Shown: positions 6,488-13,060 of the stretch, in pieces
Position numbering within the stretch: position 1 is the stretch's first letter
How the letters are laid out: each line of letters opens with the position of its first letter
Assembly: GCF_044324875.1 (NCBI RefSeq)
Contig: NZ_CP172186.1
DNA: 64,000 nucleotides
From: Escherichia coli
GTDB taxonomy: Bacteria > Pseudomonadota > Gammaproteobacteria > Enterobacterales > Enterobacteriaceae
Direction: 5' to 3' (one strand)
Translations under genes and position numbers: made by a program
The notes under the pieces: generated by a model
Database searches by the model: none
The model's input: only the letters and a program-made list of their open reading frames with translations
What the model was told of the DNA's origin: nothing

Positions 6488-6643
6488 GGGGATTCCTCCA
6501 TAGATGAATGGATAAATTTCGGGATTAAGTCGGGTGGCATGAATGCGAATCAGCGCCGGTAATAACCGGACAGGAATGAATTCAACAGGACATTTTTACA
6601 GAGAAGAGCGAACGGCAGAAGGTGGTGGGAGACAGGTACAAAA

Positions 6644-6680
6644 AAACCGACTGGTGAGGCCGGTTTTTTTGCGATTCCGG
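6644..6680. terminator. putative bidirectional intrinsic terminator (A7-CCG..CGG-T7 hairpin)
   Basis: aaaaaaaccgactggtgaggccggttttttt: short GC-anchored stem flanked by A-run and T-run; lies between IS21 end and trbA promoter region. Confidence 0.4.
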
Positions 6681-6797
6681 GGTGGAGTTGGTGGCTCTGA
6701 CCGGAGGAAGTCTCTTTTCAGCTAACAATGAGAGAGCTGTTGTGACAGGCAATGTAAGAGTAAGCAGCAGTGATTTCCTCCATTGACGGAGAAACGG

Positions 6798-6881
6798 ATG
6801 ATTAACCTGTTAATCATCGTTCTCAGGGCGGTTGTTGCTGTGGCTAACGCAGTGATAGCTCTCCGGGAACTGGTTGACTGA
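6798..6881 (+). CDS. candidate small hydrophobic peptide (27 aa, MINLLIIVLRAVVAVANAVIALRELVD)
   Basis: ATG preceded by GGAG at 6-nt spacing; start codon lies inside a 10-bp palindrome (gatgattaac-ct-gttaatcatc, 6797..6818); stable hairpin 6901..6930 downstream; below track size cutoff. Confidence 0.35.
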   Translation: MINLLIIVLRAVVAVANAVIALRELVD

Positions 6882-7120: not shown

Positions 7121-7290
7121 TTTTACACCTTTCTGTTATTCTGCTTATTACGACCAGCAGACAGCAAATATTAAAAATAACGCGGCGGTAATGCGTATTC
7201 CGCTCTATTCGATCACGGATTGGCATCGAAGTCCGATCAGCGATTCGCATCCATTCGATCAACCGGGAACTTAACTTTTTCTACCGCTTT

Positions 7291-8046
7291 TTAACGCGTT
7301 TTTTCGCTGCTTTCCACTACCGGGGGATTTTTCCTCAGTGACTCTCCCTGAAGGACCACTCGGTGTGAGTTATGTACCAGTCTGTCCAGGATGGCATCTG
7401 CTGTTGTTGGGTTCTCCATCAGACCATGCCATTTATCTACCGGGAACTGGCTTACCACTATCGTGCTGCTTTGTCCGTAACGATCCTCTATGAGCTCCAG
7501 AAGGTCATTACACTGGGCGTTACTTAACTGTTCCAGCCCCAGATCGTCCAGGATTAGAACCTGTATTTTTTGCAACTGTTTCAGATATTTCAGCCAGCTG
7601 CCATCAACACGTCCCTGAGCCAGTTGTTCCAGTAATCGCCCGGTTCTACAGTACCGGACGCTGTGTTTCTGTCGACATGCCTGTTCGCCCAGCGCATTGG
7701 CTATCCAGCTCTTGCCACATCCTGTCGGACCGGTTATCAGCAGGTTTTTCCTGTGGGTTATGTAGTGGCCGTTCAGCAGTTCTCTCATCTGTTCAGCCCG
7801 CAGACCTCTTGAGGCCGGATAGCGCAGCCCTTCCGGTGTTGCCTGGTATTTCAGGCCGGCATTTTTTCTCAACCGTGCCACACGGCTGTTTTCCCTGCTC
7901 AGAAGCTCGTCATCAACCAGCAGCGTCAGCCTTTCCTCGAACGACAGTTCGTCGTAGGTCTGAGGCGTTTCCCGCTGCCGTATCAGGCTCCCGGCCATCG
8001 CCGGGAGTTTCAGTTGGGTCAGTTTGTTTAACAGGTTATCACTCAT
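7291..8046 (-). CDS. istB: IS21-family helper ATPase IstB
   Basis: Walker A GPTGCGKSW, Walker B VLILDDLG; start taken at MSDNLLNKL (track ORF 7291..8289 begins further upstream). Confidence 0.85.
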   Translation of the reverse strand: MSDNLLNKLTQLKLPAMAGSLIRQRETPQTYDELSFEERLTLLVDDELLSRENSRVARLRKNAGLKYQATPEGLRYPASRGLRAEQMRELLNGHYITHRKNLLITGPTGCGKSWIANALGEQACRQKHSVRYCRTGRLLEQLAQGRVDGSWLKYLKQLQKIQVLILDDLGLEQLSNAQCNDLLELIEDRYGQSSTIVVSQFPVDKWHGLMENPTTADAILDRLVHNSHRVVLQGESLRKNPPVVESSEKTR

Positions 8047-8062
8047 ACTGTTGTTCCTTCTG

Positions 8063-9598
8063 TCAGTGGTAGTAGCCCGGACCACGCAGGTTTTCATGCT
8101 CTGAAGCATATGCCGGATGTTGTTCGCCCTGGCGGGATAATGGAAGCTCCAGGTTCTCCCGATGGTGACGCAGCAGATTGTCGATAAAGCGTCTGTCAGG
8201 GGCGTTATAGTGCAGGGCAACGTAACAGGCCTTTTCCAGCCGTTCCGGGCCGTATTTTTTCTGAAGTGCCAGCAGCCCCAGAACTGCACGATAAGCCAGT
8301 TCCGGATGGGGTTTTGCCTTCAGCATGGATTCAACCACCCGGCCTGTGGACGGGCCCGTACGTTTTCCCTGCTCGATCAGGCGTTCCGGTGTCCATGTCC
8401 CGTGCTGCCGGTGGCGCTCTGGCATGTGAAGCGGATTGGTTGTGTGTTTATATTCATGTGTGCTGCGCGGATGTTGCGCCACACACTGCCCCTTGTGCCA
8501 GAGCTGTACCACCGACTGCCCCGCCTTCAGTGACAGACGCTGACCGACCAGTTCGTGTGGAACGGAGTACCAGTGACGGGCATATTCAACGTGGTAGTCA
8601 GGGCCAACCTTCACAGCTTTGTATTCCGTGTATTCATAAGGTGCCAGAGGCAGCGGAGAGAGTGCTGGCGCATCCAGTATGCGGAAGCGTTCTGCACGGG
8701 TTTGATTGCCGTACCCCTTCATTGGCCGGTTATTCATGTCTGTCAGTAACTCCCTAAGGCGCGCATTCAGCGCCCTGAGCGTGTGGAAGGTTTCATTACG
8801 GATGCGGGCAAGAAGCCATCGTTCAACGATGAGGACGCCGTTTTCTGCTTTTGGTTTATCTTTAGGTTTGCGTGGTCGGGCCGGGATGATAACCGTGCCA
8901 TAGTGCTCAGCCAGTGCCTGATAACTGTCGTTGATGACAGGCTCATATCGATCGGCCTTTTTCACTGCGCTTCTGAGGTTATCGGGGATGAGCAGCTTCG
9001 GTACGCCGCCCAGGAAGGTCAGGCAACGGCTGTGGGCATTTAACCATGACATCATGTCCTGACCTTCGCACGCTTCAACGTAGGTATAGTTGGACGCCCC
9101 CATTACGGCCACGAAGATTGCCACGCGGCGTATCTCACCGGTGTCCGGATTAATAACAGGAACCGTAGGACCACAGAAGTCGATAAAAAGCTTTTCGCCG
9201 GCACGATGCTCCTGGCGCATGGAGAGACGTCGCGTTTTTTTCCACTCCCGGTAGCAACGGCAGAAGTGCGAGTATCCCATCGCTTTGTTACCCGCCTGTG
9301 CCTTGTATTCCATCCACAACAGTTGCCGCGTCACACCTGGTTTTCTCATTTCCGTATCGAAGTACAACATGTCAGGCATTACAAGCTCTGATGCAAAGGT
9401 GTCTTTGGGCGGAAAAATGAGTTTCTCCAGCGTGTCATGGGATATATCAGCAGGTAATGGCCATGACAGAGAAGAGGCTTTGAAGCGGGCAAGAACCTCA
9501 AAAACGGTTGAGGCGCTGATGTGTAACGTCAGTCCGATACAACGGTTAGTCAGCTTCTTGTCGAACTTGAGCTGAAGGATCTTAAAACAGGTTTCCAT
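8063..9598 (-). CDS. istA: IS21-family transposase IstA
   Basis: N-terminal HTH, DDE-type core; start taken at METCFKILQ with RBS (track ORF extends to 9709). Confidence 0.85.
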   Translation of the reverse strand: METCFKILQLKFDKKLTNRCIGLTLHISASTVFEVLARFKASSLSWPLPADISHDTLEKLIFPPKDTFASELVMPDMLYFDTEMRKPGVTRQLLWMEYKAQAGNKAMGYSHFCRCYREWKKTRRLSMRQEHRAGEKLFIDFCGPTVPVINPDTGEIRRVAIFVAVMGASNYTYVEACEGQDMMSWLNAHSRCLTFLGGVPKLLIPDNLRSAVKKADRYEPVINDSYQALAEHYGTVIIPARPRKPKDKPKAENGVLIVERWLLARIRNETFHTLRALNARLRELLTDMNNRPMKGYGNQTRAERFRILDAPALSPLPLAPYEYTEYKAVKVGPDYHVEYARHWYSVPHELVGQRLSLKAGQSVVQLWHKGQCVAQHPRSTHEYKHTTNPLHMPERHRQHGTWTPERLIEQGKRTGPSTGRVVESMLKAKPHPELAYRAVLGLLALQKKYGPERLEKACYVALHYNAPDRRFIDNLLRHHRENLELPLSRQGEQHPAYASEHENLRGPGYYH

Positions 9599-9702
9599 AG
9601 TGCTCCTGGATTTTCTCTTTCTGGACATTGACGTCTCCACTGGTTTAAACACGGCAATGGAGACTGTGGTGAAAAGAGTTAATTCCCGGAGTGACTGGCA
9701 GG

Positions 9703-9830
9703 ATGCCAATCAATGATCGGAAGCATGCCAAATCGTGATCGATTGTGATGCCAAACTGTGATCGGAGATGGATGCCAAATCATGATCGATTCGAATGCCA
9801 AACTGCGATCGATTCAGATGCCATTTTGCA
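9703..9830. repeat. direct repeats ATGCCAAA(T/C)NNTGATCG (at least 5 copies) at IS21-family left terminus
   Basis: Read directly; spacing about 22-27 bp; typical multi-site termini of IS21-family elements. Confidence 0.8.
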
Positions 9831-11964: not shown

Positions 11965-12406
11965 TCAACAGGCTTAATGCTGTCCAGGCGCAGTCTGCTC
12001 AGACTGTCGTGGCTGCCACAGCGGCGTCCAGTGCTTTTGCTGTAGCACTCCTGCCCCCTGATACACCATGCCGTTGGCGTTTCGTAGAGGCTGACACGTC
12101 GGGTTTTATCTTTAATGATGAGAAGCCCGGTGTGAGTTTTTGTCTTTTTCATCGGTGGGGTACAAACGCAGAAATTTTGTTGTCATTACATCATCAGTTT
12201 TAGCCTGCAGAGACGCTGAAAAATCAGCGTTTTCAGACCCTGTTCAGGTTAGTGAATATTCTTGCCTGGCCTTTCGGCAATATCAATCCCCTGATGTGTG
12301 CACACGTAGTCACTTTCCGGCTTTATTTCTGTCCCTGACACAAAATACGTGGTGGCATGAAAAGGATTGTGGCGGACAGGAAAACGATTAGAATAGCGGC
12401 GGGCGC

Positions 12407-12700
12407 TTGAGGCTGTATGCCGAAAGCGTTTTGTGGACGGCATGTAGCAGAAAGCCCCAGGCGATTTTTTTATCAATCAACCCAGGGCCCACTGTAATGC
12501 CTAGACAACATTATAGTAGCCCGATGACGGCCGAAAGGCAATGGAGGGGCTGCGATGCCACAACGAACGTTTTTAATGATGTTAATCGTCGTCTGTGTGA
12601 CGATACTGTGTTTTGTCTGGATGGTGAGGGATTCGCTTTGCGGATTTCGTATCGAGCAGGGAAATACGGTGCTTGTGGCAACGTTAGCCTACGAAGTTAA
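12407..12700 (+). CDS. pndC: pndC-like (mok-equivalent) overlapping reading frame of pnd locus
   Basis: ORF overlaps pndA in another frame, as in hok/mok-type loci. Confidence 0.45.
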   Translation: MRLYAESVLWTACSRKPQAIFLSINPGPTVMPRQHYSSPMTAERQWRGCDATTNVFNDVNRRLCDDTVFCLDGEGFALRISYRAGKYGACGNVSLRS

Positions 12701-12707
12701 ACGTTAA
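12555..12707 (+). CDS. pndA: Hok/Gef-family type I toxin PndA (50 aa)
   Basis: Manual translation MPQRTFLMMLIVVCVTILCFVWMVRDSLCGFRIEQGNTVLVATLAYEVKR: single TM helix plus conserved RDSLC motif of Hok family. Confidence 0.85.
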   Translation: MPQRTFLMMLIVVCVTILCFVWMVRDSLCGFRIEQGNTVLVATLAYEVKR

Positions 12708-12844
12708 CGGGCAACACGGCGGTAGAGAATCTGCCGCCGGATTGTTGCGAAGGCTGACCTCAATGCGCCTTGTTTGTCTTTTTTACCGGACGACTGCTGG
12801 TTGCTGCTGTCCGGCAGCTATTATTTTTTCCGTCCTGTGCGTCA

Positions 12845-13060
12845 TCAATTATGACAGTCGCTCTCATTTAGTTGTCTCTGGTTAGATGTATTATTATATA
12901 TTTTCGGGGTAATTCGATAAAAGTTATCCACTTCAGCACCAGACTGAATGATATATGCAATAAGATCTAAACGATGAATCTCGTATCGTGTACGTAACTC
13001 CATTATTTCACGCCATGGAGTACCATGTCGTGCTGGAAAATTGCTGCGGGATTCAGACAT
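12845..13060 (-). CDS. hypothetical small protein downstream of excA-like gene
   Basis: 71-aa ORF from track; low GC. Confidence 0.3.
   Translation of the reverse strand: MSESRSNFPARHGTPWREIMELRTRYEIHRLDLIAYIIQSGAEVDNFYRITPKIYNNTSNQRQLNESDCHN

What the first reader, a model, noticed from the sequence alone, without database searches (positions are those of the whole stretch)
12407..12707. Hok-family type I toxin locus (pnd-like) embedded in the transfer region
A 50-aa Hok-type toxin is encoded with an overlapping mok-like frame. This is known addiction biology, but it was missed by the 60-aa ORF cutoff and matters for plasmid stability and cloning.
Basis: partly seen in the sequence, partly recalled or inferred. 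Interest (0 to 1): 0.25.

Follow-up and report, generated by a model that had tools for sequence, protein, structure and literature searches.

The report
Known pnd (Hok-type) plasmid killer locus
This is an intact copy of the long-known pnd toxin/antisense-RNA "addiction" locus of IncI/IncB-type conjugative plasmids; its toxin is identical to the catalogued PndA protein, so the finding is correct but ordinary.

Summary
ORF 12555..12707 (+) encodes a 50-aa Hok/Gef toxin (Pfam HOK_GEF 47.5 bits, cut-off 22). Its sequence is identical to the database entry "Protein PndA, PNDA1_ECOLX" and 92% identical to the R64 copy.

All the RNA parts of a hok/sok-type type I toxin-antitoxin locus are present:
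- a structured leader (Rfam RF01794, 125.6 bits, cut-off 59);
- an antisense promoter on the minus strand (TTGCCT, 17 nt, TACTAT) whose position is conserved in nine homologues, giving a ~60-nt RNA from ~12506 to ~12447;
- a target hairpin with a CUAG U-turn loop;
- 5'-3' end pairing (12402-12411 with 12759-12769), supported by compensatory changes across the family.

The functional unit is wider than reported, about 12367-12830. It lies between trbA/nuc and excA/traY on an IncK2/Z-type plasmid. The same 456-bp stretch (12380-12835) matches 1,984 plasmid records.

Mechanism is inferred from homology. A stable toxin mRNA is activated by 3' trimming. The unstable antisense RNA blocks pndC translation, and therefore pndA translation, so plasmid-free segregants are killed. 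Novelty: already known. Interest is low.

The parts
12367..12394 (+). Putative pnd mRNA promoter: -35 TTGTGG (12367-12372), 16-nt spacer, -10 TAGAAT (12389-12394).
   Evidence: Read from the sequence. The -10 hexamer aligns with TAGAAT in R64, TATTAT in F srnB and TATGAT in F hok, each 7-8 nt before the conserved GGCGC mRNA start. The simple promoter scan did not report it because the -35 matches only 3 of 6. Inferred, not shown.
12402..12830 (+). Predicted full-length pndCA mRNA, about 429 nt.
   Evidence: The 5' end comes from position 1 of the Rfam model and from homology to the hok mRNA start. The 3' end comes from the terminator scan. MFE is -168.8 kcal/mol, z = -5.66 against shuffles.
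12401..12557 (+). Structured leader of the toxin mRNA. The Rfam 'sok' model RF01794 matches the sense strand here and ends on the toxin AUG.
   Evidence: 125.6 bits against a gathering score of 59, E=1.6e-29, model positions 1-157 of 157.
12402..12411 (+). 5' tac-like element (GGCGCUUGAG) that pairs with the 3' fbi element in the full-length mRNA. After 3' truncation it is predicted to refold into a local hairpin (12403-12408 with 12424-12429).
   Evidence: MFE pair table. Duplex energy is -19.8 kcal/mol; 5 of 300 shuffled 5' elements did as well.
12484..12487 (+). Possible Shine-Dalgarno (AGGG) for the pndC/mok-like frame, 9 nt before ATG 12497.
   Evidence: Read from the sequence. It lies inside the region complementary to the antisense RNA. 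Inferred.
12497..12700 (+). pndC/mok-like leader reading frame (67 codons plus stop). It overlaps nearly all of pndA in another frame.
   Evidence: ATG at -58 from the toxin ATG; the frame stays open until 7 nt before the toxin stop. R64 and F hok have the same offset and frame. The ATG aligns with the mok ATG of F hok.
12491..12517 (+). Antisense-target hairpin: 9-bp stem containing the pndC AUG, and a 9-nt loop CCUAGACAA (12500-12508) with a YUNR motif CUAG (12501-12504).
   Evidence: MFE and partition function give P(unpaired) of 0.90 for the loop. The same hairpin is in the Rfam consensus structure.
12447..12506 (-). Predicted PndB/Sok-like antisense RNA, about 60 nt. It has a single-stranded 5' tail (GUCUAGGCAUUA) complementary to the target loop, then a long hairpin and a CUUUCU tail. 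Both ends are approximate.
   Evidence: Fold of 12443-12506(-): -24.9 kcal/mol, z = -3.43, 5' 12 nt unpaired. The GGGGCUUUCU 3' motif is conserved in nine homologues.
12513..12541 (-). Antisense RNA promoter: -35 TTGCCT (12541->12536), 17-nt spacer, -10 TACTAT (12518->12513).
   Evidence: Minus-strand sequence. The alignment of nine hok-family loci shows invariant TTG/C in the -35 and GGC.A at the -10, with equivalent hexamers such as TTGCGC/TATCCT in F hok and TTGACC/TACAAT in srnB. It matches 8 of 12 consensus positions, so the simple scan missed it.
12543..12547 (+). Toxin Shine-Dalgarno GGAGG, 7 nt before the pndA ATG.
   Evidence: Read from the sequence.
12555..12707 (+). pndA: 50-aa Hok/Gef-family membrane toxin, MPQRTFLMMLIVVCVTILCFVWMVRDSLCGFRIEQGNTVLVATLAYEVKR.
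   Evidence: ORF. (Pfam HOK_GEF, 47.5 bits). (exact match to 'Protein PndA PNDA1_ECOLX', seen on at least 1000 contigs). (annotated in relatives as WP_001302699.1, Hok/Gef family protein).
12759..12769 (+). 3' fbi-like (fold-back inhibition) element CCUCAAUGCGC, complementary to the mRNA 5' end with one bulged U (12764).
   Evidence: MFE pairs 12402-12406 with 12765-12769 and 12407-12411 with 12759-12763. Homologues carry a complementary element at the same place (stop +48 to +58), with compensatory changes. Homology to the IncI1 (R64) module ends exactly here.
12798..12830 (+). Intrinsic-terminator-like hairpin plus T-run (TGGTTGCTGCTGTCCGGCAGCTA TTATTTTTT).
   Evidence: Terminator scan.

Best explanation
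The region is an intact pndCAB locus, a hok/sok-type type I toxin-antitoxin (post-segregational killing) module of the R16/IncB-K-Z lineage. A weak promoter makes a stable ~430-nt mRNA. In the full-length mRNA the 5' end (12402-12411) pairs with a 3' element (12759-12769), which keeps the RNA translationally inert (the pairing is predicted; the repression is inferred). Slow 3' trimming removes that element, and the 5' end refolds (the refold is predicted; the trimming is inferred from hok and pnd of R1 and R483). Ribosomes could then translate the pndC leader frame from ATG 12497, and by coupling the 50-aa toxin PndA. A stronger minus-strand promoter (12541->12513) makes a short, unstable ~60-nt antisense RNA. 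Its free 5' tail would dock on the CUAG U-turn loop of the target hairpin, cover the pndC start and trigger RNase III cleavage. Cells that lose the plasmid lose the antisense RNA first, translate PndA, and die from membrane damage. Shown here: the sequence, family membership, the structural elements and their conservation. Inferred from the family: transcription, processing, killing and the stabilising effect.
For: The toxin passes Pfam HOK_GEF and is identical to UniRef 'Protein PndA PNDA1_ECOLX'. It aligns with R64 PndA, SrnB and Hok, with all invariant residues present: C14, T16, L18, R25, L28, C29, A45, Y46, E47. The leader matches Rfam RF01794 end to end at 125.6 bits. The pndC/mok frame has the same offset and phase as in R64 and F hok. 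The antisense promoter hexamers, spacing and terminator motif are conserved in nine homologues, and the antisense RNA folds as a 5' tail plus hairpin. 5'-3' pairing appears in the MFE structure. In the five homologues with a different 5' element, the cognate 3' partner is the best of nine, at -18.5 to -25.1 kcal/mol against a non-cognate mean of -15.9 over the whole nine-locus comparison. Synteny with IncI pnd, between trbA and excA, holds. Published work describes pnd as an antisense-regulated killer system in IncI plasmids (PMC7602700; PMC4147584; bioRxiv 10.1101/2025.08.07.668861).
Against: Nothing here shows transcription, processing or toxicity for this copy. Thermodynamic folding did not predict any change in accessibility of the pndC or pndA start sites after 3' truncation, so the activation step rests on homology alone. 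In the IncI plasmid pESBL, deleting pnd alone did not affect stability (PMC7602700), and pndC/pndA scored non-essential in TnSeq (PMC4288162). The size of the stabilising effect in this plasmid is therefore uncertain. Both promoters are imperfect consensus matches that the generic scan missed.
Confidence: 0.93

Rival explanations
1. The locus is structurally intact, but its main role is not plasmid stabilisation. It might act in phage exclusion or abortive infection, in stress or persistence responses, or during establishment after conjugation, using the same toxin/antisense circuitry.
For: Deleting pnd alone had no effect on pESBL stability, and only a slight effect appeared in a delta-par background (PMC7602700). 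pndC and pndA were classed non-essential for maintenance and transfer (PMC4288162). The locus keeps a fixed place inside the transfer region in IncI and IncK plasmids.
Against: Published work reports that the native R483 pnd locus mediates post-segregational killing (cited in bioRxiv 10.1101/2025.08.07.668861). No data here point to a specific alternative role.
Confidence: 0.15
2. The locus is a decayed, non-functional relic, like several chromosomal hok loci, retained only by linkage to the transfer genes.
For: No expression data exist for this copy. The neighbourhood shows rearrangements: an IS21-family insertion at 7192-9830 and a deleted neighbouring gene at about 13013-13017. One related contig (L008) carries the toxin ORF without its leader.
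Against: Every element is intact: the toxin ORF is identical to PndA1, the leader matches the full Rfam model, and the pndC frame, antisense promoter and tac/fbi pairing are all present. Forty-nine plasmids carry the 456-bp stretch 12380-12835 at 99% identity or more, and 1,794 records have one match covering at least 80% of it, which suggests purifying selection. None of the rearrangements touches 12360-12830.
Confidence: 0.04
3. The small ORF is a chance hydrophobic ORF and the 'mok-like' frame is an accident of composition.
For: Short ORFs are abundant: 23 ORFs of at least 20 aa overlap the 900 bases 12100-13000.
Against: Pfam gives E=1.3e-12. The sequence is identical to a named protein. 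Rfam gives E=1.6e-29. The overlapping frame is conserved in the same phase in three systems.
Confidence: 0.01

Closest known systems
pnd (pndA/pndB/pndC) of IncB plasmid R16 and IncI-alpha plasmid R483
   Same: The toxin is identical to UniRef 'Protein PndA PNDA1_ECOLX'. From memory, unverified here, that is the R16 entry. It is 92% identical (46 of 50) to the IncI1 R64 copy. DNA from promoter to fbi (12360-12769) is 89.8% identical to R64. The pndC frame, antisense promoter and placement between trbA and excA are all the same.
   Different: Against the IncI1 (R64) version there are four substitutions: V13I, F31L, I33L and E34Q. Sequence downstream of the fbi element, including the terminator region, is unrelated beyond 12769. 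Gene order also differs: here the order is trbA, dqlB, nuc, HTH, pnd, excA, whereas in R64 pnd directly follows trbA and precedes dqlB.
hok/sok (parB) of plasmid R1 and its F homologue flm (flmA/B/C)
   Same: The architecture matches. The 5' GGCGCUUGAGGCU start is identical. The mok-type ATG sits at -58 in the same phase. The antisense promoter is in the same place (TTGCGC, 17 nt, TATCCT in F). There is a target hairpin, a fold-back element in the 3' UTR, and a CUGCUGGUU-containing terminator.
   Different: The toxin is only 32% identical and is 50 rather than 52 aa. The leader is about 15 nt shorter, 153 against 168 nt.
srnB/srnC of plasmid F
   Same: It is a Hok-family toxin, 46% identical, with an antisense promoter at the equivalent position (TTGACC / TACAAT) and 5'-3' complementarity (GGUGUCUG with CAGACACC).
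   Different: In srnB no start codon was found for a mok-like frame in the -1 phase upstream of the toxin ATG. The tac/fbi sequences also differ.
Chromosomal hokA-E / gef loci of E. coli
   Same: They belong to the same Pfam family. Some sources label this exact protein 'protein HokA'.
   Different: It fails the NCBIfam HokA equivalog cut-off (66.7 against 89 bits), so it is not HokA. It is plasmid-borne with all regulatory parts intact, whereas published work suggested the chromosomal systems are inactive because three tested loci (hokA, hokB, hokC) could not mediate killing (bioRxiv 10.1101/2025.08.07.668861).

Membership tests
Hok/Gef toxin family (Pfam PF01848) | Score at or above the Pfam gathering threshold on the HOK_GEF model. 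| tested here: met
   47.5 bits against a cut-off of 22, E=1.3e-12, covering profile positions 3-42 of 42.
Hok/Gef toxin family (Pfam PF01848) | Peptide of about 50 aa with an N-terminal hydrophobic helix and the conserved residues C..T..L...R..LC...AYE. | tested here: met
   In the six-sequence alignment, C14, T16, L18, R25, L28, C29, A45, Y46 and E47 are invariant and all present.
Hok/Gef toxin family (Pfam PF01848) | Membrane-damaging toxicity on expression. | not testable with these tools
   Needs an expression experiment. Toxicity is published for PndA of R483 and for 42 of 45 tested Hok homologues (bioRxiv 10.1101/2025.08.07.668861).
hok/sok-type type I toxin-antitoxin locus | Long structured 5' leader of the toxin mRNA with the family's conserved fold. 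| tested here: met
   Rfam RF01794 scores 125.6 bits against a gathering score of 59, with full model coverage, on the + strand, ending on the toxin AUG.
hok/sok-type type I toxin-antitoxin locus | Overlapping leader ORF (mok/pndC) whose start lies in the antisense target and which reads through the toxin start. | tested here: met
   ATG 12497 (-58 from the toxin ATG), open to 12700. R64 and F hok have the identical offset and phase. The start codon sits in the stem of the target hairpin.
hok/sok-type type I toxin-antitoxin locus | Cis-encoded short antisense RNA with its own promoter inside the leader. | tested here: met
   At sequence level only. TTGCCT, 17 nt, TACTAT at 12541->12513, conserved in position across nine homologues. 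The predicted ~60-nt RNA has a free 5' tail plus a hairpin. Transcription was not tested.
hok/sok-type type I toxin-antitoxin locus | 5' (tac) to 3' (fbi) end pairing of the full-length mRNA. | tested here: met
   The MFE structure pairs 12402-12411 with 12759-12769. Cognate 5'/3' partners are the best of nine in all five homologues that have a divergent 5' element.
hok/sok-type type I toxin-antitoxin locus | 3' processing that activates the mRNA, RNase III cleavage of the duplex, and post-segregational killing. | not testable with these tools
   These are experimental properties. In-silico truncation refolds the 5' end but predicts no change in start-site accessibility.
pnd subfamily (PndA of R16/R483) | Toxin sequence identity to named PndA. 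| tested here: met
   An exact-sequence look-up returns 'Protein PndA ... RepID=PNDA1_ECOLX'. It is 92% identical to the R64 copy.
pnd subfamily (PndA of R16/R483) | Location in the IncI-complex transfer region between the trb and exc/traY genes. | tested here: met
   Annotations of pLH50-c-A (IncK2/Z, 99.97% identical flanks) and of R64. An IncI-complex replicon marker, PK-repZ, lies at 63839-63988.
HokA (NCBIfam NF007290 equivalog) | Score at or above the curated equivalog cut-off. | tested here: not met
   66.7 bits against a cut-off of 89. The Hok subfamily model NF007279 gives 41.5 against 73. The label 'protein HokA' that some sources give should not be adopted.

The most novel reading that the evidence does not exclude
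The R16/IncK-type and IncI1-type pnd modules share homology that stops exactly at the 3' edge of the fold-back element (12769). Beyond it this copy carries a different terminator, one that resembles the F hok terminator (CUGCUGGUU). This could mean that the 3' 'timer' segment, the part trimmed to activate the mRNA, is an exchangeable cassette that sets lineage-specific activation kinetics. It may equally be an ordinary recombination breakpoint.
Probability: 0.08. Interest if true: 0.3.

Novelty: already known. Interest (0 to 1): 0.06.

Why it matters
The value is practical rather than conceptual.

- **Annotation:** the locus should be labelled pndA (toxin), pndC (leader frame) and pndB (antisense RNA, minus strand). 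Size-filtered ORF callers miss the 50-aa toxin. The Rfam 'sok' hit lands on the mRNA strand, so a naive transfer would put the antitoxin on the wrong strand.
- **Cloning and curing:** fragments that carry 12555-12707 without the antisense promoter (12513-12541) could be toxic. Plasmid-curing strategies need to supply the antisense RNA.
- **New biology:** none. The same 456-bp stretch (12380-12835) matches 1,984 sequenced plasmid records.

Tried and rejected
1. The generic sigma-70 scan found neither the mRNA promoter nor the antisense promoter. Both fall below its 9-of-12 rule. I placed them by homology instead.
2. As in mok, what matters is that the frame is open, not the protein it encodes.
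3. Accessions AP005147 and KY749247 (R64, R1) are not in the collections. I used NC_005014 (R64) and NC_002483 (F) instead.
4. The viral-contig scan gave only six loci. One of them, L008, lacks the leader and was dropped from the RNA comparisons.
5. An unrestricted search for the best 3' partner picked non-homologous sites in R64, F hok and L013. I then restricted the search to stop+30..+130 and compared cognate with non-cognate partners.
6. In-silico 3' truncation was expected to expose the start sites but did not. The activation step is therefore reported as inferred.
7. A six-frame HMM search for a second Hok gene in the window found none.
8. I did not run the large protein-database searches, structure prediction, or the metagenome and genome scans. 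The exact-match look-up had already settled the identity.

Full report
**Observation**

The window holds a 50-aa ORF at 12555..12707 (+): MPQRTFLMMLIVVCVTILCFVWMVRDSLCGFRIEQGNTVLVATLAYEVKR. A longer ORF in a different frame overlaps it at 12407..12700.

The short protein matches Pfam HOK_GEF (PF01848) at 47.5 bits against a gathering score of 22, E=1.3e-12. It falls below the curated cut-offs of the NCBIfam HokA equivalog (66.7 against 89) and of the Hok subfamily model (41.5 against 73). The 97-aa overlapping frame has no family match. A six-frame search with a Hok profile found no second Hok gene in the 64-kb window.

**Identity**

An exact-sequence look-up returns this very sequence, named by the sources 'Hok/Gef family protein', 'protein HokA' and 'Protein PndA ... 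RepID=PNDA1_ECOLX'. It has been seen on at least 1000 contigs.

Identity to other family toxins:

| Toxin | Identity |
|---|---|
| R64 (IncI1) PndA | 92% (46/50) |
| Vibrio plasmid homologue | 57% |
| F SrnB | 46% |
| IncHI2 homologue | 38% |
| F Hok/Flm | 32% |

Residues C14, T16, L18, R25, L28, C29, A45, Y46 and E47 are invariant across this set.

DNA searches place the window on an IncI-complex plasmid:
- It is 100% identical over 701 bp to pLH50-c-A (IncK2/Z), where the ORF is annotated WP_001302699.1.
- The 456-bp stretch 12380-12835 has matches in 1,984 plasmid records. Of these, 49 are at 99% identity or more and 1,354 are at 90-95%.
- The window also carries the IncI-type repZ pseudoknot at 63839-63988.

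**Context**

In pLH50-c-A, whose flanks are 99.97% identical to the window, the gene order is: trbA, dqlB, nuclease, HTH gene, three small ORFs, the Hok gene, excA, traY, traX, traW. R64 has its pnd gene in the same trbA-to-excA interval, but directly after trbA. [quoted passage not shown]

**RNA anatomy**

*Leader.* Rfam RF01794 ('sok') matches 12401..12557 on the + strand over the full model, at 125.6 bits against a gathering score of 59. The match ends on the toxin AUG, so the model describes the toxin mRNA leader in sense orientation. The antitoxin RNA is on the other strand. This is a trap for anyone transferring the annotation automatically.

*mRNA promoter.* A -10 hexamer, TAGAAT (12389-12394), lies 7-8 nt before the conserved GGCGC start. 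It aligns with the equivalent hexamers of R64, srnB and F hok. The -35 (TTGTGG) is weak.

*Leader frame.* The mok/pndC-like frame most plausibly starts at ATG 12497. That is 58 nt before the toxin ATG, in the same phase as in R64 and F hok, and it ends 7 nt before the toxin stop.

*Target hairpin.* The ATG at 12497 lies in the stem of a hairpin (12491-12517). Its 9-nt loop, CCUAGACAA, is predicted to be 90% unpaired and contains a YUNR motif, CUAG.

*Antisense RNA.* The minus strand reads TTGCCT (12541->12536), 17 nt, TACTAT (12518->12513). In an alignment of nine family loci these hexamers keep their position, for example TTGCGC/TATCCT in F hok and TTGACC/TACAAT in srnB. A GGGGCUUUCU motif follows at the 3' end. 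A transcript from about 12506 to about 12447 folds with a free 12-nt 5' tail followed by a long hairpin (-24.9 kcal/mol, z = -3.4). That free tail is complementary to the target loop.

**End pairing**

The predicted full-length mRNA (12402-12830) has an MFE of -168.8 kcal/mol (z = -5.7). In that structure 12402-12411 pairs with 12759-12769, with one bulged U.

Across homologues, a complementary 3' element sits at the same distance from the stop codon (+48 to +58) and changes together with the 5' end. Examples are GGGUGCUCUGGAUC with GGAUCCAUGAGCACCC, and GGGCGCUUUUGGCU with AGUCAAAAGCGCCC.

I compared cognate and non-cognate partners across nine loci. In all five loci with a divergent 5' element, the cognate partner was the best of nine. 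The cognate mean over all nine loci was -20.8 kcal/mol, against -15.9 for non-cognate pairs.

Removing the 3' element in silico lets the 5' end fold into a local hairpin (12403-12408 with 12424-12429). It does not change the predicted accessibility of the start sites. The activation step is therefore inferred from published work on hok and pnd, not shown here.

A terminator-like hairpin with a T-run lies at 12798-12830. Homology with the IncI1 module spans 12360-12769 at 89.8% identity and stops at the edge of the 3' pairing element.

**Mechanism**

This is committed to, but largely inferred from the family. The locus is a hok/sok-type post-segregational killing module.
1. The stable pndCA mRNA is made in an inert, end-paired form.
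2. It is slowly activated by 3' trimming.
3. The abundant but short-lived antisense RNA binds the U-turn loop and blocks pndC translation. Because pndA translation is coupled to pndC, pndA is blocked too.
4. The duplex is cleaved by RNase III.
5. After plasmid loss the antisense RNA decays first, and PndA kills the cell by damaging the membrane.

These steps are described for hok and stated to hold for pnd of R483 in PMC4147584 and in the papers cited in PMC7602700.

One caveat applies. In the IncI plasmid pESBL, deleting pnd alone did not alter stability, and pndC/pndA scored non-essential in TnSeq. The real contribution to maintenance may be modest or redundant.

**Comparison and novelty**

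This is a member of the pnd subfamily, not merely similar to it. It has an exact toxin match and meets every sequence-level defining feature tested. It is not HokA, because it fails the equivalog cut-off.

The differences from the IncI1 version are minor: four conservative substitutions, a different 3' terminator segment, and a different gene order within the trbA-excA interval. Nothing is new.

**Noticed in passing**

- A second type I toxin locus, also below the 60-aa cut-off: a DinQ-like 27-aa ORF with an AgrB-like antisense RNA at about 6638-6881.
- An IS21-family insertion at 7192-9830.
- A deleted neighbouring gene at about 13013-13017, and a 257-bp indel at about 12293-12302, both relative to R805a.
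- A viral-collection contig that carries the pndA ORF without its regulatory leader.

Noticed in passing
window 6638-6881: A second small type I toxin-antitoxin locus that a 60-aa ORF cut-off would also miss. A 27-aa DinQ-like ORF (MINLLIIVLRAVVAVANAVIALRELVD) lies at 6798..6881 (+). Related plasmids annotate it as 'DinQ-like type I toxin DqlB'. An Rfam AgrB antisense RNA match lies at 6638..6725 (-), 51.8 bits against a gathering score of 40.
   Followed up: partly
window 7192-9830: A 2.64-kb insertion relative to the otherwise 99.7-99.97% identical plasmid pLH50-c-A, with about 5 bp of overlap at the junctions. It encodes an IstB-like ATPase (7291..8289 -) and an rve/Mu-transposase-C protein (8063..9709 -), so it is an IS21-family insertion sequence. 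It sits between the dqlB locus and the nuclease gene.
   Followed up: partly
window 12845-13060 (-), junction at about 13013-13017: The 71-aa ORF just downstream of pnd appears to be a fused remnant of a 528-aa 'TnsA endonuclease N-terminal domain' gene that is intact in R805a and many IncI-gamma/K1 plasmids. About 1,366 bp are missing here. It has no Pfam match.
   Followed up: partly
window 12293-12302: Most close relatives, such as R805a, carry an extra ~257 bp here, about 65 bp upstream of the pnd promoter. The extra sequence holds a small annotated hypothetical ORF. The window and two IncK2/Z plasmids lack it, and the blast blocks overlap by 10 bp at the junction, which may mark a short direct repeat.
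   Followed up: no
L008 (IMGVR_UViG_2534681836_000028) 687-915: A contig from the viral collection carries a pndA ORF 96% identical to the window's, with its SD and 3' UTR up to the fbi element (window 12541-12769). The whole leader, the antisense promoter and the pndC start are replaced by unrelated sequence, and there is no Rfam sok hit. An AgrB-like RNA lies nearby at 1328-1414. This is a toxin gene apparently uncoupled from its antitoxin.
   Followed up: partly
window 12401-12557 (+): The Rfam family RF01794, named 'sok antitoxin', matches the toxin-mRNA sense strand and ends on the toxin AUG. Automatic annotation from this hit would place the antitoxin on the wrong strand and make it too long.
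   Followed up: yes
window 12769 and beyond: Homology between this R16/IncK-type pnd and the IncI1 (R64-type) pnd stops exactly at the 3' edge of the fold-back element. The terminator segment beyond it (12798-12830) shares a CTGCTGGTT motif with the F hok terminator.
   Followed up: partly
window 22935-23051 and 63839-63988: Other Rfam hits above gathering score: an ALIL pseudoknot at 22935-23051 (+), which is an IS3-family frameshift element and points to another IS, and the repZ regulatory pseudoknot at 63839-63988 (+), which marks the IncI-complex replicon.
   Followed up: no
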